In this document: positions 2,703 to 33,579 of the stretch, piece by piece
How positions within the stretch are numbered: the first letter of the stretch is position 1
Layout of the letters: every line of letters begins with the position of its first letter
UHGV virus genome: UHGV-0853564
DNA length: 43,023 nt
Reading direction: 5' to 3' (one strand)
Source: a virus
Translations under genes and position numbers: made by a program
Notes under the pieces: generated by a model
Seen by the model: the letters and a program-made list of their open reading frames with translations, nothing else
Database searches by the model: none
What the model was told of the DNA's origin: nothing

Positions 2703-2734
2703 TTGCACACCCCAATATAATAGGGTACTATTCA
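2703..2734 (+). promoter_or_regulatory. promoter-like element TTGCAC-N17-TACTAT with internal TATAAT and AATAG-N4-CTATT dyad
   Basis: ttgcacaccccaatataatagggtactattca, ~25 nt upstream of ATG 2760; near-identical copies at 11659..11690 and (reverse) 22995..23026. Confidence 0.5.
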
Positions 2735-11339: not shown

Positions 11340-11363
11340 GTTTCCCCTTTCTCGATAAGTAAA

Positions 11364-11383
11364 GCCCCGCCTTAAAGCGGGGC
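11364..11383 (-). terminator. stem-loop GCCCCGC-N6-GCGGGGC followed by T-rich tract on minus strand
   Basis: Perfect 7-bp GC stem, immediately upstream of the i-spanin start. Confidence 0.4.
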
Positions 11384-11590
11384 GCTAGTCCTTATCATTT
11401 AAACATAGAAACGGCGTAATCTCTGCAAACCAGTTACTTTTTACACAAGCAATAGAGTATGGCCCTTCCGAACGCGTCAGCGTAACTACACTCAGGACTT
11501 ACGTCCCGCTCCGTTACCTGCCCGCGCCGCGGTCGCTTGTTCATACTTCACAAGCTCAGGTGGAGCTTAGCACATTTTCAGTGAAAAGTC

Positions 11591-11606
11591 AACTATTCGA
11601 ATAGTT
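11591..11606. promoter_or_regulatory. perfect 16-bp palindrome AACTATTCGAATAGTT (operator-like)
   Basis: Contains both orientations of the GAATAGT half-site; followed by TTATTCCAACAT (11606..11617). Confidence 0.45.
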
Positions 11607-11658
11607 TATTCCAACATTTACAAATGAGTGGAATAACTGGAATACATAAACAAATAGT

Positions 11659-11690
11659 TTGCGCACCCCAATATAATAGGGTACTATTCA
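11659..11690 (+). promoter_or_regulatory. promoter-like element TTGCGC-N17-TACTAT (copy of 2703..2734)
   Basis: ttgcgcaccccaatataatagggtactattca, ~24 nt upstream of ATG 11714. Confidence 0.5.
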
Positions 11691-11713
11691 GTTAACTTAA
11701 ACAGGAGGTATTT

Positions 11714-11938
11714 ATGCCGATTAGATTTACAAATCAAAAGAAGTCTAGAGATGTACGCCCCGGAGAAAAGGTGCAGGTATTTGACGAGTGGTACTGGGTT
11801 CGTTACATAGATTATCTTGGTGGTAAAAAGCTAAATTTACGTTTGCAGCACGAAAATGAGCCTCTTAGCCCGTTCTATGAAAACGATAAAATAGTCATAA
11901 CCATGCCCGATGATTTGGTGATAGACGTGGAAGTTTAA
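11714..11938 (+). CDS. hypothetical 74-aa protein, moron gene
   Basis: AGGAGG RBS; own promoter-like element and terminator; opposite strand to flanking structural genes; AT-rich. Confidence 0.55.
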   Translation: MPIRFTNQKKSRDVRPGEKVQVFDEWYWVRYIDYLGGKKLNLRLQHENEPLSPFYENDKIVITMPDDLVIDVEV

Positions 11939-11944
11939 AACTAA

Positions 11945-11965
11945 AGCCCCGTAATGGGGCTTTTT
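11945..11965. terminator. rho-independent terminator AGCCCC-GTAAT-GGGGCT + T5
   Basis: Hairpin followed by TTTTT on plus strand; lies between convergent genes. Confidence 0.65.
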
Positions 11966-11966
11966 A

Positions 11967-12428
11967 TCATTCCGGCTTAGTAACCTTCGCCGCTTTACTA
12001 ACGGCCTCTACGCCATCGGCATCGGCGACTTTAACGAAGTATTCACCAACTGCGTTAACAGTCAGAGACAAAGCCTCTTCAGGTGCGTTTACAACTTCCT
12101 TACCGTCTTTGTACCAGGTCAGCGCATACGGCGCTTTACCGGCCTTAACTTCGACAGTGATAGTTGCACTGCCATCGGTCAGTTCGGCGTCTTTCGGTTG
12201 CACGGAGAAGTACACATCACCAGCGTCCGCCAGATACGGAATCTCATAGAGCATACCGGCGGCGGGCAACGCAATACCGGTTTTATCTGCAAACGGCATA
12301 TCATCTACAGGCGTACCAAGTACACTTTCATCTTCAATAAACACCACGTTCTCGCCGGAGCCAGACACGCGGGCGTACTGAACTACGCGACGCGACGGCA
12401 CATCAGTTACTTTGAAAAAGCCCATCAT
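11967..12428 (-). CDS. Ig-like domain-containing virion protein
   Basis: 153 aa; C-terminal TITVEVKAGKAPYALTWYKDGKEV resembles Ig-like fold. Confidence 0.45.
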   Translation of the reverse strand: MMGFFKVTDVPSRRVVQYARVSGSGENVVFIEDESVLGTPVDDMPFADKTGIALPAAGMLYEIPYLADAGDVYFSVQPKDAELTDGSATITVEVKAGKAPYALTWYKDGKEVVNAPEEALSLTVNAVGEYFVKVADADGVEAVSKAAKVTKPE

Positions 12429-13540: not shown

Positions 13541-15022
13541 TTACTGCTGAGTTGGGTCTTGCTGCTGTGCCGACTGCGGGATTTCGCCTGCTACCGGAGC
13601 AACAGCACCCAACGGCAGCGGCGCGTCTTCGATAGCGTTCTGAATGTCCTCGTCTGTCCAGTCAGTTACGCCGGCCTTACGCAACGCAGCATAATAAGCG
13701 GTGGCAGGTAGCAGGCCTGCGTTAATATCCGCCATCCACTGAGCGCGGTCCTGAGCGGTCATCGGTTGCAGGAAGAACTCCATGTTCAGTTTGAACTCAA
13801 TCTCTGTGCCTTCACGCAGCCCAAGCATCGCCGCCGCCCAGCGCAACGAATCGGTGTACGCCATGCTTACGTTACGTGCAATTGTCGCCATAACGGACGT
13901 ATCGGCACCACGTTGCAGGCGGGCCGATTCTGCGGTGATTTGCTGCGTCGGGGTGATAAGCTGCGCACCAATCTGGATTGCCTGATTCTCTTTATCCAGC
14001 ATATTCTGCTTGGCAAGGTTGTTCTCTCCTGCCTGAACCAGAAACGCGTTTCCGCCGTACCCGATGTTATGGCCTGAACGCGACCCCATGCGAACGCCGT
14101 GCGGGTTAGCCTCTTTCCACTGTTCCATGCTCATATTCTCGCCAGGAGCAATGAACAGAGTTGGCTGGCCTACAACGAAGCTGGACTCCTCATTGTCTGC
14201 GCTGTTGCGGAAATGCCCGATATTAAGCTCAGCCAACGGTAGCAAAGGTGCATCGTCGATAGTAGCGTCGTTGTTGCTCGCCCCGATGAACGTGAACGGG
14301 ATTTTGCCGCGTAACTGTCCCCCGAGTTCCGGGAATATTTCGATTACTTGGTCCTGTGCACCCCCTTCGGCATCGAAGCGGTAAATGCGCTGGCGGTAGC
14401 GCCCGTCAATCAAATCAAGAACGCGGTATTGCTCACCGAACTTTGTTTCGAACTCTGCGCCCGGTTCCGAGTATTCCCATACCTCACGCAACACGACCAT
14501 AGTCACTCGGTTAACTGAGCCAACGCGAGTCAATCGCCAGTTGATGATGTTCTCTGCGGTATAGAATGCGATGACCGGGTTTAATAATCCCGCGTTCTGT
14601 TCGGCTGCCGTTGCCGCAGCAGTCTCCGGGGCATCAACCAGCAACCCGCCACGGCCAACCGAGTCAATTTCCATTAGCGTATCCTGCGCGTGCTGCCACA
14701 GCCCGACACCGGAACCGTCGGCGTTGCGTAACAGGTACTCCAGTTCAGGCGGGATAATCTGCTCGGGGTCTTTGCGCATGACACTGCCGACCATTCCCGC
14801 CAGGGTACGTTTTGTGAAGTTGTAGCAGATAGCGCCGTTCTCGTATTCTTCCTGGCGCTGGGCCGCGTAGGTCGGGTCAGGCTCGTTCTTCCCGACGTTG
14901 CGCAGGTAACGGATGAGGTCGCCTTCCAGAGCGTGTCGCACCTTCTGCCATTTATCGAAGTGATGCAGCCATTCCCGGTGTTTTGTCTTAACACCCTGAT
15001 TCTGACCGTTCATAGTTAACAT
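13541..15022 (-). CDS. portal protein
   Basis: 493-aa ORF directly downstream of large terminase and upstream of Mu-F-like gene; acidic C-terminus. Confidence 0.7.
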   Translation of the reverse strand: MLTMNGQNQGVKTKHREWLHHFDKWQKVRHALEGDLIRYLRNVGKNEPDPTYAAQRQEEYENGAICYNFTKRTLAGMVGSVMRKDPEQIIPPELEYLLRNADGSGVGLWQHAQDTLMEIDSVGRGGLLVDAPETAAATAAEQNAGLLNPVIAFYTAENIINWRLTRVGSVNRVTMVVLREVWEYSEPGAEFETKFGEQYRVLDLIDGRYRQRIYRFDAEGGAQDQVIEIFPELGGQLRGKIPFTFIGASNNDATIDDAPLLPLAELNIGHFRNSADNEESSFVVGQPTLFIAPGENMSMEQWKEANPHGVRMGSRSGHNIGYGGNAFLVQAGENNLAKQNMLDKENQAIQIGAQLITPTQQITAESARLQRGADTSVMATIARNVSMAYTDSLRWAAAMLGLREGTEIEFKLNMEFFLQPMTAQDRAQWMADINAGLLPATAYYAALRKAGVTDWTDEDIQNAIEDAPLPLGAVAPVAGEIPQSAQQQDPTQQ

Positions 15023-15034
15023 TGAATAATCCTC

Positions 15035-16306
15035 TTAAAGTGCGAAAGTCACCGGGACGTTAATAACTGGTTTGCGAATCGGCATTTCATACGCGATAGG
15101 GTATGTGGTTCCATCATTCTGGTGGTCCACACCACCTGATTTATCCGGTTCGCCGTTTTTGTCGTAAGCCTGTTGCTCAAGGCATCGCGCCGTAACCGGG
15201 CAAGCCTGCTCGTTAATCATGACCATACCAGATTCAAGCGCCTTGTTCATTGCTGATACGCGGTCTTTAACCGGCGGGTTTGTTGATTTGGCGCGTACTT
15301 CGAAACCAGCCTGCTGTAACTGAGCGATGTCCGAGGTGCTGGCATTATTACTTTTACGGTTTTTGCCGCTGGCGTCCGGGTACATAACGATATAGTGGCC
15401 TTTACTTTTCCACCTCTCAGTTATGGCTCGCACTACGTCAGGCGTATCGAACATATCAACCAACTCGGCAACAGCATGCCAGACTTTACCACGTTGCACG
15501 TAAACTGTACTCGCCATGTGACCTACGTTAAAGTCCTGCCCGATATACAGAGTCTCGCCAGGTTTGATTGTTTCGCGACTGCTGTTTTTCCTGCGGTCGT
15601 AAGCATAGTAGACCGTTCCAGCCGTGAGGTTTACGAACTCGCCGTTGATGTAGGCGTCAATCAATTGCCCCGGGTAGGTGTCGCGCAATGACTGCACATA
15701 ATCTTCTGGCAGGAACGGGTTAGACAGGGTGGACGCCTGAATCATCTCATAGCCAGGATTCTTTTTGACCACCCAGCGGTCATGTACAAAACGGAATCCT
15801 TCCGGCGTAGTGAACACGGAAACGGTATTAGCCGGTTTTGGCGTAATAGGCTTATACGTCCGCGGCAACTGGCGGTTACGGGCGATGACTTTGTTCCACG
15901 CGTGCTCGGCGTGTTCCATGTTAAGAGTGTCCAACTCGTCGATTTTTGCACGAAACGATTCGTAACCGACGATTCGTGCTGGATTATCGAGTGTACGCAG
16001 GACAAAATCACCGAATTGTCCGGATGACGTATAGATTATGTTGTCGGACTTGTTGTATTTGTACCTCACGCCCCAGTCGGTGAGTTTTTCTTCCATACGA
16101 GGTGCAAGGATAAGGCGCACCAGGTCATAAGTCGGCTCGTACATGGCGATGATAGAATCGCTACCGCCTTCCATGCTGTCGAGCAGTGCTGAGTTGCACA
16201 TAACTTCGGATTTACCGGTACCAAATCCCGCTACGAAGGCGGGGAACTTGCAGTGCATACCGAGAAACGCGCCTTGCGGTTCTGTCGCCGTGATATTAAC
16301 GTTCAC
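15035..16306 (-). CDS. terminase large subunit
   Basis: Walker A-like FVAGFGTGKSEVM near N-terminus; nuclease-type acidic motifs (IGQDFNVG, MYPDASG) C-terminally; track start is GTG. Confidence 0.8.
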   Translation of the reverse strand: MNVNITATEPQGAFLGMHCKFPAFVAGFGTGKSEVMCNSALLDSMEGGSDSIIAMYEPTYDLVRLILAPRMEEKLTDWGVRYKYNKSDNIIYTSSGQFGDFVLRTLDNPARIVGYESFRAKIDELDTLNMEHAEHAWNKVIARNRQLPRTYKPITPKPANTVSVFTTPEGFRFVHDRWVVKKNPGYEMIQASTLSNPFLPEDYVQSLRDTYPGQLIDAYINGEFVNLTAGTVYYAYDRRKNSSRETIKPGETLYIGQDFNVGHMASTVYVQRGKVWHAVAELVDMFDTPDVVRAITERWKSKGHYIVMYPDASGKNRKSNNASTSDIAQLQQAGFEVRAKSTNPPVKDRVSAMNKALESGMVMINEQACPVTARCLEQQAYDKNGEPDKSGGVDHQNDGTTYPIAYEMPIRKPVINVPVTFAL

Positions 16307-16805
16307 CGGGCACCACCTTAATTGTTACTTCACTGATTGGCTCGTCGCGTACTTCTTCGGTGGCAACAGTTTTATTCAGCCCCAGCTTAGCTGCGGCAAA
16401 CGTAGCAGAGATACCCGCGGCCCCTGTCTCGGTGAAATACGCCTCTTCCAGTGCCTGTGCTGTCTCCCAGGCTTCTGCAAATGCGGGAATCTCGCGCAGC
16501 CACAGCTTAATAATCGGGATAGTGACGCCGATGTGCAGGGCAAAGCGGGCCAGCGACGGTGGTTTGTCCTGAATCAGCGGGCGTTCGTCACCCTTAGACG
16601 TAGGCACAAGCTCCCATGACGTGCGGTCAAAGAAACGAATCAATTCGTCGCAATAGTCCGGGTCCCACAACGCGGCGGAATTACGGGATGATTGATAAAG
16701 GCTCTGTTTACCGCGCGGTCGTTTACGGCGACGGTTTGCGCTAACAGCTTCTTCATGTGCAGCTTGCACCACCTCTGGCGATGGCTGCTTGAGTTTCAGC
16801 TTCAT
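16296..16805 (-). CDS. putative terminase small subunit
   Basis: Overlaps large terminase start; internal ATG (MKLKLKQ...) with AAGGGG RBS preferred over track start 16844. Confidence 0.5.
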   Translation of the reverse strand: MKLKLKQPSPEVVQAAHEEAVSANRRRKRPRGKQSLYQSSRNSAALWDPDYCDELIRFFDRTSWELVPTSKGDERPLIQDKPPSLARFALHIGVTIPIIKLWLREIPAFAEAWETAQALEEAYFTETGAAGISATFAAAKLGLNKTVATEEVRDEPISEVTIKVVPGER

Positions 16806-16903
16806 AGAATCCCCTTGCATATGCGTCTGACCATCAGAGCGCATCAGACGCGCCCTACGCGTCTAAAGGGATTATATAAGGGGATTGGGCGGGATGTACA
16901 GAA

Positions 16904-18797: not shown

Positions 18798-18881
18798 CTT
18801 TTCTACTCCGTTCTCGTTGTCGGTGGAGTAAATATAGTAGGGTCGCAGGTAATAGTCAACTAGTCATCGCAGATGATAGAT

Positions 18882-18913
18882 AAAAAAAATCCCGGCTGGG
18901 TCAGGGCCGGGAT
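18882..18913 (-). terminator. rho-independent terminator downstream of lysis cassette
   Basis: 8-bp stem atcccggc/gccgggat followed by U8 on the minus transcript. Confidence 0.6.
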
Positions 18914-19129
18914 AAAACTGGAGAGCAGAGGGGTGGAACATTAGGTTGGTGAAACCAGTATGAAGCTGCCGTTGTTGGGTGTCAACCCTCGCCGTAGCCG
19001 ACAGACTCGTCGATATCGTCCCGCGACTTAACCGGGTTGGTAAACTCTTGTAACGCCATAGTGGCCTCCAATAAGCAAATACGAAAAACTTGGCATGAAC
19101 AGAATACTAAACGCCTTCGTATTCGTCCA

Positions 19130-21691: not shown

Positions 21692-21713
21692 ATGAATAGT
21701 AGCCTATTCTATC
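21692..21713 (-). promoter_or_regulatory. GAATAGT dyad element (atgaatagtagcctattctatc) upstream of leftward gene
   Basis: TACTATTCA about 27 nt upstream of ATG 21664 on minus strand, followed by conserved leader catcttctgtctctcctctc (also at 21074). Confidence 0.45.
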
Positions 21714-22790: not shown

Positions 22791-22963
22791 TTCGCCCCTT
22801 TGAATTTAAAATTGTTGCCGATGAGTTCTATGTCTTTCGCATACAGGAAACCGTAGTGGATTCCGCTTTTTACCTTAACAACGTCATACATTTCTAAGTA
22901 CCATTCTACGAAGTAAAAATCCCTCGTCCCTTTAACTTTAACCAACTGACCCTTCTTAAACAT
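22787..22963 (-). CDS. hypothetical protein, first gene of leftward operon
   Basis: Track start GTG 22972; ATG 22963 with GAGG RBS preferred. Confidence 0.4.
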   Translation of the reverse strand: MFKKGQLVKVKGTRDFYFVEWYLEMYDVVKVKSGIHYGFLYAKDIELIGNNFKFKGAK

Positions 22964-22994
22964 AACCCTCACTCCTCTGTCTCGTTTCGATAAG

Positions 22995-23026
22995 TGAATA
23001 GTATCCTATTATGTTGGGGTGTGCAA
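22995..23026 (-). promoter_or_regulatory. promoter-like element for leftward operon (reverse copy of 2703..2734)
   Basis: Minus-strand reading ttgcacaccccaacataataggatactattca; second GAATAGT at 23029..23035. Confidence 0.5.
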
Positions 23027-23406
23027 GAGAATAGTTACGTTGCCGTTGTGATTCTTCAGGCAGGGTTGTGCCTTTATTCTTATTACTTGGTAACTAAAGG
23101 GCAGGCCTTAAGCCTGCCCAATAATCGTTACATTTTTACGGTTGCGAATCTACGGCACATTAAGAAAATCAGATACTTAAGAGATATGCCGCCGGTGAGA
23201 ATAGAGCTTGCCCAGGGCAACCGGAGATACTTAGGGAGGAAAGTTACGATAATTCTTATGTTCAGTAAACTTTCGCTTAACACTTTGCTTGCGCTGCGCG
23301 CAACTGCGTTTTAAGCGGTTTTACAAGGTGAACAGGAATCAAAGTAACTAAGATATAGAAGCACCTTAAACGAAGATTTCCATAATGTCAATAGGTGCGA
23401 TTATGT

Positions 23407-23435
23407 TTGATTTCCCATTATTCGCAATGTATACT
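23407..23435 (+). promoter_or_regulatory. sigma70-like promoter TTGATT-N17-TATACT for rightward early operon
   Basis: Consensus-like hexamers with 17-nt spacer about 30 nt upstream of first rightward ORF. Confidence 0.45.
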
Positions 23436-23467
23436 TGATCCCGTTAACTGATAATGAGGGTTTGAGA

Positions 23468-23620
23468 ATGGTTACTTTGACAGAAGAACAGTTGAAAGAG
23501 TTGCTGATAGAAGCGTGGTTTAACGGGCATGGCGAGAGCAGATACTGCCCCAATAAATACGGCGCAGCTACAGCGTTCGCACGGGAAACAATTAAGGAGA
23601 TTAAAGATGACACAGAATGA
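23468..23620 (+). CDS. small hypothetical protein
   Basis: ATG with GAGGG RBS; track start 23435. Confidence 0.4.
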   Translation: MVTLTEEQLKELLIEAWFNGHGESRYCPNKYGAATAFARETIKEIKDDTE

Positions 23621-23777
23621 AGTGGCCGAGCGTATCGGGGTTACTCGTCGAACGCTGAATAACTGGTTAAAGAGTGGGAAGTTCCCGGATTGCTGTATTC
23701 GCATTATGGGCCGCCGTCAGCCTGGCACATTTGACCCGGAGAAAGTGGAAGCGTGGATTAAGGAGAACGTGAAATGA
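23607..23777 (+). CDS. small HTH DNA-binding protein (AlpA/excisionase-like)
   Basis: MTQNEVAERIGVTRRTLNNWLKSGKFP is a typical HTH; AAGGAG RBS. Confidence 0.5.
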   Translation: MTQNEVAERIGVTRRTLNNWLKSGKFPDCCIRIMGRRQPGTFDPEKVEAWIKENVK

Positions 23778-26566: not shown

Positions 26567-26585
26567 GTGAATAGTACCATATTAA
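26567..26585 (-). promoter_or_regulatory. GAATAGT element upstream of XRE gene
   Basis: gtgaatagtaccatattaa; TACTATTCA about 29 nt upstream of ATG 26539 on minus strand; also readable as TTGATA-N17-TAATTA on plus. Confidence 0.45.
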
Positions 26586-26603: not shown

Positions 26604-26632
26604 TTGACACGTGAATAGTTTGCTATTATAGT
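26604..26632 (+). promoter_or_regulatory. sigma70-like promoter TTGACA-N17-TATAGT with GAATAGT dyad in spacer
   Basis: Perfect -35, 17-nt spacer containing tgaatagtttgctatt; ~30 nt upstream of ATG 26665. Confidence 0.6.
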
Positions 26633-30017: not shown

Positions 30018-30042
30018 CACCTGAATAGTTAGCTATTATATT
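30014..30042 (+). promoter_or_regulatory. sigma70-like promoter TTGACA-N17-TATATT with GAATAGT dyad in spacer
   Basis: Same architecture as 26604..26632; upstream of SSB-like gene; palindrome AATACGTATT at ~29965. Confidence 0.55.
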
Positions 30043-33261: not shown

Positions 33262-33579
33262 ATGAGTACGCCTGAGGGGCGCGTGCAGAAATATGCAAAA
33301 GAGCGATTCGAGGCCCTCGGTGGCCTCGTTCGAAAACTTTCCTACGAGGGTCGCTCTGGCGCTCCTGACCTGCTGGTAATTCTCCCCGGCGGAATCATCT
33401 GGTTCGTCGAGGTTAAGAAAGACGAAAACACGAAGCCAGACCCGCACCAGTTACGGGAGCATGGGCGGATGCGTAAACGTGGTGCAAATGTTTTTGTAGT
33501 TGGTTCGATAAAACAGGTTGACACCTTAATAGCGGACTATTATAGTAAGCGCATACCCCAACAATATAAGGAATTATAA
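33262..33579 (+). CDS. VRR-NUC domain nuclease
   Basis: GAPDLLVILPGGIIWFVEVKK matches VRR-NUC PD-(D/E)XK signature. Confidence 0.6.
   Translation: MSTPEGRVQKYAKERFEALGGLVRKLSYEGRSGAPDLLVILPGGIIWFVEVKKDENTKPDPHQLREHGRMRKRGANVFVVGSIKQVDTLIADYYSKRIPQQYKEL

What the first reader, a model, noticed from the sequence alone, without database searches (positions are those of the whole stretch)
22964..23467. ~500-bp noncoding control region between the divergent operons
This is the largest noncoding stretch in the genome. It holds the leftward promoter-like element with two GAATAGT copies (22995..23035), an 8-bp-stem hairpin (gggcaggc-cttaa-gcctgccc at ~23097..23117), the palindrome TTGCCCAGGGCAA (~23207) and the rightward TTGATT-N17-TATACT promoter (23407..23435). 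It is the best candidate for the replication origin, a packaging site or a small RNA. The only ORF here (22994..23314) has a GTG start and no RBS.
Basis: partly seen in the sequence, partly recalled or inferred. Interest (0 to 1): 0.45.

Follow-up and report, generated by a model that had tools for sequence, protein, structure and literature searches.

The report
Divergent promoter hub plus leader RNA
The 500-bp gap between the two early operons of this Kagunavirus-like phage is a real non-coding control region with three host-type promoters and, between them, a conserved, strongly folded leftward RNA that has a sister copy in front of the lysis/capsid genes; this RNA is undescribed and is more likely a regulatory leader than a replication origin or packaging site.

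Summary
The window is a whole ~43-kb Kagunavirus-like (Guernseyvirinae) phage genome. The gap 22964..23467 is non-coding: ORF 22994..23314 breaks to 14-116 aa in close relatives.

The gap holds three sigma-70-type promoters:
- P_R (23407..23435, rightward).
- P_L (23026..22998, leftward), one of a promoter family sharing the palindrome GAATAGTNNNCTATTAT.
It recurs in all four sequence variants of this region.

P_x would transcribe ~265-330 nt of conserved, structured minus-strand RNA: a 108-nt hairpin with compensatory changes, a near-invariant centre, and a GC hairpin with a UUUAGUUA tail (23119..23099).

A collinear paralogue lies at 11592..11354, directly upstream of the Rz-like spanin, scaffold and major-head genes. 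Its fold is strongly minus-strand specific. Nothing matches in Rfam or in E. coli genomes.

Best reading: a promoter hub plus a new cis-acting leader-RNA family (attenuation, antitermination or stabilisation). The function is inferred, not shown. An origin is unsupported but not excluded. A packaging site is unlikely.

The parts
22964..23467 (.). Whole non-coding gap between the leftward gene (ATG 22963) and the rightward small ORF (ATG 23468)
   Evidence: Sequence. Flanking ORFs match PHROG families and the internal ORF does not. 449 phage records match the gap.
22994..23314 (+). Spurious ORF (annotated as a hypothetical protein in phage Bas73); not a gene
   Evidence: GTG start, no RBS, and it begins inside P_L. 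There is no Pfam or PHROG hit. In relatives with the same start the frame runs only 14-116 aa, because of indels and stops.
22998..23026 (-). P_L: -35 TTGCAC (23026..23021), 17-nt spacer, -10 TACTAT (23003..22998). It drives the leftward early operon and contains the palindrome GAATAGTATCCTATTAT (22996..23012).
   Evidence: It is one of four nearly identical promoters, each 20-35 nt upstream of an RBS and ATG. The palindrome is found at 10 sites against 0.14 expected. The same motif was reported 7 times in phage fBC-Eco01 (PMC9825357).
23027..23056 (.). Conserved block upstream of the P_L -35 (GAGAATAGTTACGTTGCCGTTGTGATTCTT). It holds the second GAATAGT and the inverted repeat AGAAT/ATTCT.
   Evidence: Conserved in the Kagunavirus variants A, B and C and in the main Jerseyvirus types. 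Function unknown.
23089..23119 (-). H1: the 3' hairpin of the leader (GGGCAGGC UUAAG GCCUGCCC, 23119..23099) plus the tail UUUAGUUACC (23098..23089). Terminator-like on the minus strand only.
   Evidence: Flagged by the terminator scan. Pair C-G changes to U-A in 4 sequences. Other GC hairpins occupy the same place in variant B.
23120..23241 (-). Near-invariant central part of the RNA. It includes the small stem UUGCC-CUG-GGCAA (23220..23208), the motif CUCUAUU, and UAAGUAUCUGAUU, which on the plus strand is the IHF-consensus-like AATCAGATACTTA (23167..23179).
   Evidence: About 95% identical between Kagunavirus and Jerseyvirus. The helices here vary only by one-sided changes. The IHF pattern is the only match in the gap, and genome-wide there are 6 matches against 2.3 expected.
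23242..23349 (-). Domain 1: a 108-nt irregular hairpin with stems P1 (AGUUAC/GUAACU), P2, P3, a 4-nt CCUU bulge, P4, P5 and a variable apex
   Evidence: All 23 distinct Kaguna-A and Jersey sequences give the same minimum-energy architecture on the minus strand. Compensatory changes are seen in P2, P4 and P5.
23363..23391 (-). P_x: -35 TTGACA (23391..23386), 17-nt spacer, -10 TAAGGT (23368..23363). The inferred transcription start is near 23356.
   Evidence: It is the top minus-strand hit of my position-weight matrix in every variant: A TTGACA-17-TAAGGT, Jersey TTGACA-17-TAAGTT, B TTGACT-17-TAAGCT, C TTGAAA-18-TATAAT. The block AATGTCAATAGGTG is invariant in A and Jersey.
23407..23435 (+). P_R: TTGATT-N17-TATACT, the promoter of the rightward operon (HTH protein, helicase-primase, DNA polymerase A)
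   Evidence: TTGATTTCCCATT and GTATACT are invariant in A and Jersey. Variant B has TTGCTT-N17-TATACT.
11354..11592 (-). Paralogous module. Promoter TTGACT-N17-TAAGCT (11592..11564); structured leader; hairpin GCCCCGC-UUUAAG-GCGGGGC (11383..11364) with tail UUUACUUAUC; then the RBS and ATG 11339 of the Rz-like spanin gene.
   Evidence: It is 88% identical over 145 nt to the hub copy of variant-B phages. nhmmer gives E = 2.5e-53. It aligns collinearly with the 23-kb copy at z ~3.9. Covariation and strand specificity are shown. Downstream genes are identified.

Best explanation
The gap is the early transcription hub of the phage. Two host-RNA-polymerase promoters stand back to back. P_R fires rightward into the replication operon. 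P_x fires leftward.

P_x transcribes a non-coding, strongly folded RNA of about 265 nt up to hairpin H1, or about 330 nt up to P_L. This RNA ends in a GC hairpin with a short, interrupted U tail. Just beyond it lies P_L, a second leftward promoter that carries a palindromic operator shared with other promoters of the genome.

The folded RNA belongs to a two-copy family. The sister copy, with its own promoter and the same kind of 3' hairpin, lies immediately upstream of the spanin, scaffold and major-capsid genes.

I therefore read the RNA as a cis-acting 5' leader. Its 3' hairpin stops or slows part of the transcription, and its folded body controls how much RNA polymerase, or how much stable mRNA, reaches the genes behind it (attenuation, antitermination or stabilisation).

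Shown here: non-coding status, the promoters as conserved consensus matches, the conserved fold, its strand, and the paralogy. Inferred: that the RNA is made at all, where it ends, and what it does.
For: Non-coding status:
- The ORF is not conserved.
- There are no protein-family hits.

P_x:
- It is the best minus-strand sigma-70 match, at the same place next to P_R, in four variants whose spacers and flanks differ.
- The same hexamers, TTGACT-17-TAAGCT, head the paralogue.

Fold:
- Folding energy for 23090-23357 has z = -4.5 on the minus strand.
- Domain 1 keeps one architecture in 23 of 23 sequences on the minus strand. All 12 Kaguna-A sequences are more stable on that strand.
- In the A-type alignment, 99% of cells are paired, and 4 pairs (21 cells) change on both sides. 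No shuffle out of 500 reaches the observed covariation score, and versions with partners slid by 1-3 columns pair at only 30-49%.

Strand:
- For the paralogue type, the minus-strand consensus is -21.99 kcal/mol with 6 compensatory pairs and three invariant G.U pairs.
- The independently predicted plus-strand consensus is -13.46 kcal/mol with none.
- Pairing of that consensus falls from 97% to 80% if it is read on the plus strand.

Leader rather than free-standing gene:
- The two copies are collinear over their whole length, including the hairpin, the tail UUUA(G/C)UUA and an AAAGG that is the RBS in the 11-kb copy.
- In the 11-kb copy the hairpin is about 25 nt from the start codon of the spanin gene, with no other predicted promoter in between.
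- A bidirectional terminator (11943-11963) closes the upstream operon.
Against: - There are no transcript data. The only transcriptome paper found for a Kagunavirus is gene-level.
- Hits at this score with my position-weight matrix are not rarer genome-wide than in shuffles (16 observed against 14 expected). P_x therefore rests on positional conservation.
- For the A-type copy the strand preference is weak: -36.4 against -34.8 kcal/mol. The whole-region energy comparison is inconclusive.
- Counted as mutational events, G.U-forming and A.C-forming changes are about equal on the A-type copy.
- The near-invariant centre shows no compensatory change, so its fold is unsupported.
- H1 has only 5 U in 8 after the stem. 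The variant-B hairpins lack a U tail, so termination is uncertain.
- P_L makes a leader unnecessary for expression of the leftward operon.
Confidence: 0.55

Rival explanations
1. Free-standing trans-acting small RNA. P_x makes a discrete ~265-nt RNA that ends at H1 and acts elsewhere, on host or phage mRNAs or on a protein. The 11-kb copy would be a second small-RNA gene.
For: Promoter, structured body and terminator-like hairpin together form a complete small gene. The centre is nearly invariant without covariation, as expected for a sequence that must pair with or bind a partner. P_L provides separate expression of the downstream operon.
Against: The U tail is short and interrupted, unlike the strong terminator elsewhere in this genome, which has a run of 8 T near 18900. 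Variant-B hub copies have no U tail. The paralogue abuts the RBS of the next gene. No homologue was found in E. coli genomes or Rfam to suggest mimicry. No target was sought.
Confidence: 0.18
2. Replication origin. The conserved hairpins and motifs are recognised as DNA, or the P_x transcript primes or activates replication, as at the T7 and T4 origins or with ColE1 RNA II. The paralogue would be a second origin.
For: The region lies next to the replication operon with helicase-primase and DNA polymerase A. The cumulative GC skew has its minimum at ~23,000. The DNA is strongly conserved and has an IHF-consensus match. Transcription-linked origins with promoters are known in T7 and T4 (my own knowledge).
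Against: The skew minimum coincides with the switch of gene orientation, so it is not independent evidence. There are no iterons, only one 9-nt two-copy direct repeat. DnaA boxes are not enriched. There is no distinct AT-rich unwinding element: the lowest G+C, 0.33-0.35, is at the promoters. The compensatory changes and the strand-specific G.U pairs point to a single-stranded fold of one strand. The paralogue sits inside the late module, abutting an RBS.
Confidence: 0.12
3. A purely DNA-level control region. The conserved blocks are binding sites for host factors such as IHF and for phage regulators acting on P_L, P_x and P_R. The apparent RNA folds would be by-products of palindromic operators.
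For: AGTTAC occurs 4 times within 317 bp, against about 0.9 per kb genome-wide. There is an IHF-consensus match with an A/T-rich 5' flank, kept in variants A, Jersey and hub-B although the N positions differ. A conserved HTH gene is the first shared gene of the rightward operon.
Against: Operators do not explain long irregular helices whose arms change in concert, with three different Watson-Crick pairs at one position. They do not explain invariant G.U pairs that work on one strand only. Two of the AGTTAC copies are the two arms of stem P1.
Confidence: 0.1
4. Packaging (pac/cos) site, or a protein-coding gene (ORF 22994..23314).
For: Bas73 annotates the ORF as a hypothetical protein. Some GenBank records start at this gap, which is probably only a numbering convention.
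Against: The large terminase is at 15035..16306, with the likely small-subunit gene at 16296..16844, 6-7 kb away. The Guernseyvirinae-like phage Shashou is predicted to package by headful from a pac site, and the Kagunavirus fBC-Eco01 showed no defined termini. The ORF breaks in close relatives and has no family, RBS or ATG.
Confidence: 0.03

Closest known systems
Lambda late leader: P_R' promoter, 194-nt '6S' transcript, terminator tR', Q antitermination (my own knowledge)
   Same: A host-type promoter is followed by a non-coding leader of about 200 nt. The leader ends in a hairpin just before the lysis and head genes. This is exactly the anatomy of the 11-kb copy (promoter 11592..11564, hairpin 11383..11364, then spanin, scaffold and major head protein).
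   Different: No Q-like protein was sought or found. In lambda the leader RNA fold is not the conserved functional part, because the Q-binding site is DNA at the promoter. Here the RNA fold is conserved through compensatory changes. The hub copy precedes early genes and a further promoter.
HK022 putL/putR RNA antiterminators (my own knowledge)
   Same: There are two diverged copies per genome. Each lies just downstream of a strong host-type promoter on the transcript of a long operon. Each is conserved as an RNA fold rather than as a coding sequence.
   Different: The put elements are about 70 nt with two defined stem-loops. These elements are 190-330 nt with a different architecture. No sequence or structure model of put was available to test against. 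Action on RNA polymerase is untested.
Lambda P_L leader (nutL plus RNase III hairpin) and T7 RNase III processing hairpins (my own knowledge)
   Same: A long irregular hairpin with internal loops lies in a 5' leader or intergenic transcript of an early operon. Domain 1, with about 40 base pairs, looks like an RNase III substrate.
   Different: No boxA/boxB match is convincing. GCUCUAUUC next to UUGCC-CUG-GGCAA is in the wrong order and is not kept in Jerseyviruses. Cleavage is untested.
Transcription-linked origins: T7 primary origin, T4 ori(uvsY)/ori(34), ColE1 RNA II (my own knowledge)
   Same: A promoter next to the replication genes makes a structured non-coding transcript, and the phage encodes a family-A DNA polymerase.
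   Different: There is no AT-rich unwinding element downstream of the promoter. The second copy lies in the late module directly at an RBS.
Back-to-back divergent sigma-70 promoters in phage control regions, for example Mu Pe/Pc with an IHF site (my own knowledge)
   Same: The -35 boxes of P_x and P_R are 15 bp apart on opposite strands. An IHF-consensus match lies in the region.
   Different: No repressor gene or operators lie between the promoters. The IHF-like site is about 180 bp from either start and is not kept in the 11-kb copy.

Membership tests
Sigma-70 promoter (P_R, P_x, P_L) | -35 and -10 hexamers close to TTGACA/TATAAT with a 16-18-nt spacer | tested here: met
   P_R is TTGATT-17-TATACT, P_x is TTGACA-17-TAAGGT and P_L is TTGCAC-17-TACTAT.
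Sigma-70 promoter (P_R, P_x, P_L) | Conserved position and orientation relative to genes in relatives | tested here: met
   Hexamers are invariant in variants A and Jersey, and equivalent hexamers sit at the same place in variants B and C. P_L copies always lie 20-35 nt before an RBS.
Sigma-70 promoter (P_R, P_x, P_L) | Transcription starts there in vivo or in vitro | not testable with these tools
   No strand-specific or 5'-end data were found. The K1B4 transcriptome paper is gene-level.
Structured non-coding RNA (cis-regulatory leader) | Secondary structure conserved through compensatory base changes | tested here: met
   The A-type alignment has 4 pairs (21 cells) changed on both sides. The B-type/11-kb alignment has 6 pairs (16 cells), and one pair takes the forms UA, CG and AU. 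No shuffle out of 500 reaches either covariation score, and versions with slid partners are far lower.
Structured non-coding RNA (cis-regulatory leader) | The fold is specific to the strand that a promoter would transcribe | tested here: met
   For the B-type/11-kb copy the difference is clear: -21.99 against -13.46 kcal/mol, 6 against 0 compensatory pairs, and three invariant G.U pairs. For the A-type copy it is weak: -36.4 against -34.8 kcal/mol, although domain 1 is consistent only on the minus strand.
Structured non-coding RNA (cis-regulatory leader) | Lies on the same transcript as, and upstream of, the genes it controls | tested here: inconclusive
   This is met by anatomy for the 11-kb copy, where the hairpin is about 25 nt before the spanin ATG. 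At the hub, P_L intervenes.
Intrinsic (Rho-independent) terminator (H1, 23119..23099) | GC-rich stem-loop followed directly by a U-rich tract | tested here: inconclusive
   The stem has 8-9 bp with 7 G-C pairs, and the tail is UUUAGUUA with 5 U in 8, so it passes the simple scan. The tail is much weaker than the T8 terminator near 18900. The variant-B hairpins lack a U tract.
Any Rfam family | Score at or above the family's gathering threshold | tested here: not met
   There are 0 hits in the whole window. The best sub-threshold hits are 21.7 bits against 79 needed and 18.3 bits against 42 needed.
HK022 put-type antiterminator RNA | Two copies, each downstream of a promoter of a long operon | tested here: met
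   The copies are at 23391..23089 and 11592..11354. Variant-B phages carry the B type at both places.
HK022 put-type antiterminator RNA | About 70 nt with two specific stem-loops, making RNA polymerase terminator-resistant without a protein | not tested
   No put model was available. The size and architecture here differ. Activity cannot be tested in silico.
Lambda-type Q-controlled late leader | Promoter, then a terminated leader of about 200 nt, then lysis and structural genes | tested here: met
   The 11-kb copy has this anatomy.
Lambda-type Q-controlled late leader | A Q-family antiterminator protein encoded by the phage | not tested
   The window's proteins were not all scanned for Q families.
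Phage replication origin | Iterons (three or more direct repeats) or DnaA boxes, plus an AT-rich unwinding element | tested here: not met
   The only direct repeat is a two-copy 9-mer, AGATACTTA. There is a single one-mismatch DnaA-box match, and the genome-wide count is at chance. There is no distinct AT-rich block.
Phage replication origin | GC-skew switch independent of gene orientation | tested here: inconclusive
   The cumulative skew minimum at ~23,000 coincides with the strand switch of the genes.
Packaging site (pac/cos) | Lies in or next to the small-terminase gene, or at mapped termini | tested here: not met
   TerL is at 15035..16306 and the portal gene at 13541..15022. Relatives package by headful/pac or show no termini. 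No reads were available for this genome.
IHF binding site | WATCARNNNNTTR with an A/T-rich 5' flank | tested here: met
   AATCAGATACTTA lies at 23167-23179 and is preceded by TTAAGAAA. It is kept in Jersey and hub-B variants. Binding is untested, and the 11-kb copy has AACCAG instead.
Protein-coding gene (ORF 22994..23314) | Reading frame preserved in relatives, with a start signal and family membership | tested here: not met

The most novel reading that the evidence does not exclude
The two paralogous elements are a new class of phage RNA that acts in cis on the transcribing host RNA polymerase. They would be either a put-like, protein-independent antiterminator or the RNA target of an unknown phage antiterminator. 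This would allow one modest promoter to drive the long leftward early operon, and another to drive the lysis, scaffold and capsid operon, across terminators. It would be the first such system described in a virulent siphophage group that is widely used for therapy and synthetic biology.
Probability: 0.2. Interest if true: 0.7.

Novelty: new variant of a known kind. Interest (0 to 1): 0.45.

Why it matters
Guernseyvirinae (Kagunavirus and Jerseyvirus) are among the most frequently isolated E. coli and Salmonella phages. They are used in biocontrol, in therapy and as small chassis for synthetic biology, yet I found no transcription map for them.

This analysis gives a testable map of the early hub:
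- Three promoters.
- A promoter class with a shared palindromic operator.
- A conserved leader RNA that also heads the capsid operon.

If the leader controls read-through or mRNA stability, it is a handle for tuning early and late expression in engineered phages. It is also a region that must not be treated as dispensable 'junk' or mis-annotated as a protein, as it is in at least one curated record. If it proves to be an RNA that modifies RNA polymerase, it would add a new member to a very small class (nut, put, EAR).

Tried and rejected
- Rfam at gathering threshold on the whole window, and at permissive E-values on both loci, gave nothing credible. The tRNA/tmRNA scan found none.
- A BLAST of 23027-23400 against 5,426 complete E. 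coli genomes found no match. The RNA is therefore not a copy or mimic of a host sequence at the DNA level.
- Comparing whole-region minimum free energy on the two strands across 40 sequences was inconclusive (mean difference +0.7 kcal/mol, 15 of 40 favour the minus strand). Only analysis at the level of domains and individual pairs was informative.
- An exact-pattern scan of IMG/VR with the P_x/P_R block returned only contigs I already held.
- Literature searches for transcriptomes, origins or non-coding RNAs of these phages found one gene-level time course and nothing on this region.
- I considered a boxA/boxB (nut) reading of GCUCUAUUC next to UUGCC-CUG-GGCAA and rejected it. The order is reversed and the boxA-like part is not kept in Jerseyviruses.
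- I considered small peptides in the conserved centre and rejected them. A T-run length polymorphism and other indels break every frame.
- I considered the small hairpin 23058-23073 and rejected it, because it is not conserved.
- DnaA boxes, iterons and an AT-rich element for an origin were not found.
- My sigma-70 matrix uses approximate frequencies of my own. Its genome-wide hit count does not exceed that of shuffles, so it was used only for positional comparison.
Full report
**What the window is.** Megablast of the region and its flanks finds 285 phage records, nearly all Escherichia Kagunavirus and Salmonella Jerseyvirus (Guernseyvirinae). The 43-kb window is therefore a whole genome of that type.

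Gene layout:
- Genes run leftward from 22963 down to about 4538. First come small early genes, then the terminase (15035..16306), portal and head genes.
- Genes run rightward from 23468. These include an excisionase-like HTH protein, a helicase-primase, a PD-(D/E)XK nuclease and a family-A DNA polymerase.

The gap between the ATG at 22963 (minus strand) and the ATG at 23468 is 504 bp. A crude ORF-coverage check finds no larger stretch free of ORFs on the operon strand; the runners-up are 359 and 332 nt, and a second divergent gap is 374 nt.

In most relatives the HTH gene starts exactly where the window has ATG 23468. The window and a few relatives carry an extra 50-aa gene there (phrog_20928).

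**The gap is non-coding.**
- ORF 22994..23314 is annotated as a hypothetical protein in Bas73 but not in most relatives.
- It has a GTG start, lacks an RBS and begins inside a promoter.
- It has no Pfam or PHROG family, whereas every flanking small ORF has one.
- In relatives that keep the same start, the frame is open for anything from 14 to 116 aa, because of 1-, 8- and 10-nt indels and stop codons.
- Shorter ORFs on either strand are also broken by indels.

**Three promoters.**

*P_R* (TTGATT-17-TATACT, 23407..23435) is invariant in the window's variant ('A') and in Jerseyviruses.

*P_L* is TTGCAC (23026..23021), 17 nt, TACTAT (23003..22998).
- It is one of four nearly identical 31-nt promoters in the window. 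The others are at 2715, 11671 and 21694. Each is correctly oriented 20-35 nt before an RBS.
This palindrome occurs at 10 sites in the genome against 0.14 expected. The sites include three TTGACA-type promoters at 26604, 30014 and 33518.
- The same motif was reported seven times in the Kagunavirus fBC-Eco01, where it was called a phage promoter (PMC9825357).

It is TTGACA (23391..23386), 17 nt, TAAGGT (23368..23363), on the minus strand, back to back with P_R.
- With a sigma-70 weight matrix of my own, it is the best minus-strand site in every sequence variant of the gap: A, Jersey (TTGACA-17-TAAGTT), B (TTGACT-17-TAAGCT) and C (TTGAAA-18-TATAAT). The spacers and surroundings differ between variants.
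- Hits at this score are not rare genome-wide (16 observed against 14 in shuffles). The argument is therefore positional conservation, not the score.

**A conserved, folded minus-strand RNA between P_x and P_L.** The gap is conserved in 449 phage records, at 75-79% identity to Jerseyviruses. Its centre (23064-23215) is about 95% identical between the two genera.

From an inferred start near 23356, the minus strand reads as follows:
1. **Domain 1 (23349..23242)** is a 108-nt irregular hairpin with stems P1 (AGUUAC/GUAACU), P2, P3, a CCUU bulge, P4, P5 and a variable apex.
2. **The central part** is nearly invariant.
3. **Hairpin H1 (23119..23099)** has the tail UUUAGUUACC. The scan rates it terminator-like on the minus strand only.

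Evidence for the fold:
- The stretch folds better than its shuffles (z = -4.5 on the minus strand, -3.8 on the plus strand).
- On the minus strand all 23 distinct A and Jersey sequences give the same domain-1 architecture, and all 12 A-type sequences are more stable there. On the plus strand the Jersey sequences refold differently, with 5-7 G.U pairs in most.
- The P4 pair takes the forms A-U, G-C and U-A. The P5 arms occur as CGCUUAA/UUAAGCG, UGCUUAACCC/GGGUUAAGCA, UGUUUAACCC/GGGUUAAACA and CCGCC/GGCGG.
- On the RNAalifold consensus, 99% of cells pair and 4 pairs (21 cells) change on both sides. No shuffle out of 500 reaches the observed covariation score, and versions with partners slid by 1-3 columns pair at 30-49%.
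- H1 covaries (C-G to U-A). Variant-B phages have different GC hairpins at the same place.

For this copy the strand preference is only modest: -36.4 against -34.8 kcal/mol, and 4 against 2 compensatory pairs. A whole-region energy comparison was inconclusive.

**A paralogue changes the reading.** The window's other divergent gap (11340..11713) contains the following on the minus strand:
- TTGACT-17-TAAGCT (11592..11564).
- A structured leader.
- The hairpin GCCCCGC-UUUAAG-GCGGGGC (11383..11364) with tail UUUACUUAUC.
- About 25 nt later, the RBS and ATG 11339.

Evidence for paralogy:
- Its first 145 nt are 88% identical to the hub sequence of variant-B phages (nhmmer E = 2.5e-53).
- It aligns collinearly with the window's hub copy over the whole length (z ~3.9 against shuffles). 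The shared elements, in order, are CUUGU, CUCUAUU, AAGUAnCUGrUU, GCCGU, the hairpin, the UUUA(G/C)UUA tail and an AAAGG that is the RBS in this copy.
- The locus is 94-98% identical in 182 records from both genera. Variant-B phages show two or three matching places.

Genes around it:
- The genes behind it are an Rz-like spanin, the scaffold and the major head protein.
- A bidirectional terminator at 11943-11963 closes the operon upstream.
- This promoter and leader therefore appear to head the main late operon.

Structure and strand evidence for this copy is strong:
- The minus-strand consensus is -21.99 kcal/mol with 6 compensatory pairs among only 9 sequences, and three invariant G.U pairs.
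- The independently predicted plus-strand consensus is -13.46 kcal/mol with none.
- Reading the same pairs on the plus strand lowers pairing from 97% to 80%.

**Interpretation.** The anatomy is a host-type promoter, a conserved folded RNA and a GC hairpin with a weak U tail. It occurs twice per genome. One copy abuts the RBS of the first late gene.

The best fit is a cis-acting leader that controls how much transcription, or how much stable message, reaches the genes behind it.

The nearest known arrangements are all recalled from my own knowledge:
- The lambda P_R'-6S-tR' late leader.
- The paired put sites of HK022.
- The lambda P_L leader with nutL and an RNase III hairpin.

Membership in any of these could not be shown:
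- Rfam has no match.
- The elements are larger than nut or put.
- No antiterminator protein was sought.

The function is therefore inferred.

**Rival readings.**
- **Free-standing small RNA ending at H1.** This remains possible. It would explain the near-invariant, non-covarying centre.
- **Replication origin.** It has no positive support: no iterons, no DnaA-box enrichment and no distinct AT-rich block. The GC-skew minimum coincides with the switch of gene orientation. It cannot be excluded without replication mapping.
- **DNA-level sites.** An IHF-consensus match at 23167-23179 and a cluster of AGTTAC may coexist with the RNA. They do not explain the covariation, and two of the AGTTAC copies are simply the arms of P1.
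- **Packaging site.** This is unlikely. The terminase genes are 6-7 kb away, and relatives package by headful or show no defined termini.

What is there is a divergent promoter hub plus a member of an undescribed two-copy leader-RNA family of Guernseyvirinae. It is of moderate interest. It is well supported as a structure but unproven as to function.

Noticed in passing
window 11340-11713 (minus strand 11592..11354): A second divergent non-coding gap holds a paralogue of the hub RNA, made of promoter TTGACT-17-TAAGCT, a structured leader and a terminator-like hairpin. It lies directly upstream of the Rz-like spanin, scaffold and major-head genes and back to back with a P_L-type promoter that reads rightward to gene 11714..11938.
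   Followed up: yes
window 2717-2733, 11673-11689, 18849-18865, 21694-21710, 22996-23012, 26569-26585, 26613-26629, 30023-30039, 33526-33543: The palindrome GAATAGTNNNCTATTAT (half-sites AATAG/CTATT) lies in the spacer and -10 of two promoter sub-families, a TTGCAC type and a TTGACA type. There are 10 matches against 0.14 expected. It looks like an operator for a dimeric phage regulator. The conserved 56-aa HTH_17/MerR-like protein (23607..23777) is a candidate, but this was not tested.
   Followed up: partly
window 23468-23620: A 50-aa gene (phrog_20928) is present only in the window and a few relatives (L002, L004, L013). In the other relatives that align up to this point, the HTH gene starts at this very ATG. 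Its first codons (ATGGTTACTTTGA) repeat at the start of the ORF behind the 21694 promoter. The 10-mer GTTACTTTGA also occurs at the 5' end of the leader (23348..23339, minus strand).
   Followed up: partly
loci L018-L045 (hub region of other Kagunaviruses) and L016, L017, L033, L040 (SETP3-like Jerseyviruses): The hub is mosaic. At least four or five interchangeable sequence variants of the P_x-to-P_L interval exist, with sharp boundaries near window 23056, 23169 and 23181. Some variant-B copies contain a (GAGT)n microsatellite of variable length. The main Jerseyvirus types carry an extra ~130-nt module with a second GC hairpin.
   Followed up: partly
locus L004, position equivalent to window 23099-23119: The loop of hairpin H1 is inverted (GGGCAGGC-TTAAG-GCCTGCCC instead of -CTTAA-). 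The whole palindrome is flipped, as expected from template switching within a hairpin.
   Followed up: no
window 11943-11963: AAAGCCCCGTAATGGGGCTTT is a symmetric hairpin flanked by A and T runs. It looks like a bidirectional terminator between the convergent genes 11714..11938 (+) and 11967..12428 (-).
   Followed up: no
window about 18890-18930 (minus strand), between promoter-like sites 18985..18957 and 18859..18831: A strong canonical terminator (CCCGGC...GCCGGG followed by T8) is followed at once by the best sigma-70 match of the left arm (TTGACT-17-TATATT). This probably marks a boundary between transcription units in the leftward arm.
   Followed up: no
PQ850603.1 (Bas73) locus L001 1748-2068: The curated record annotates the equivalent of ORF 22994..23314 as hypothetical protein Bas73_0055. 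The comparative evidence here indicates that this is an over-call.
   Followed up: yes
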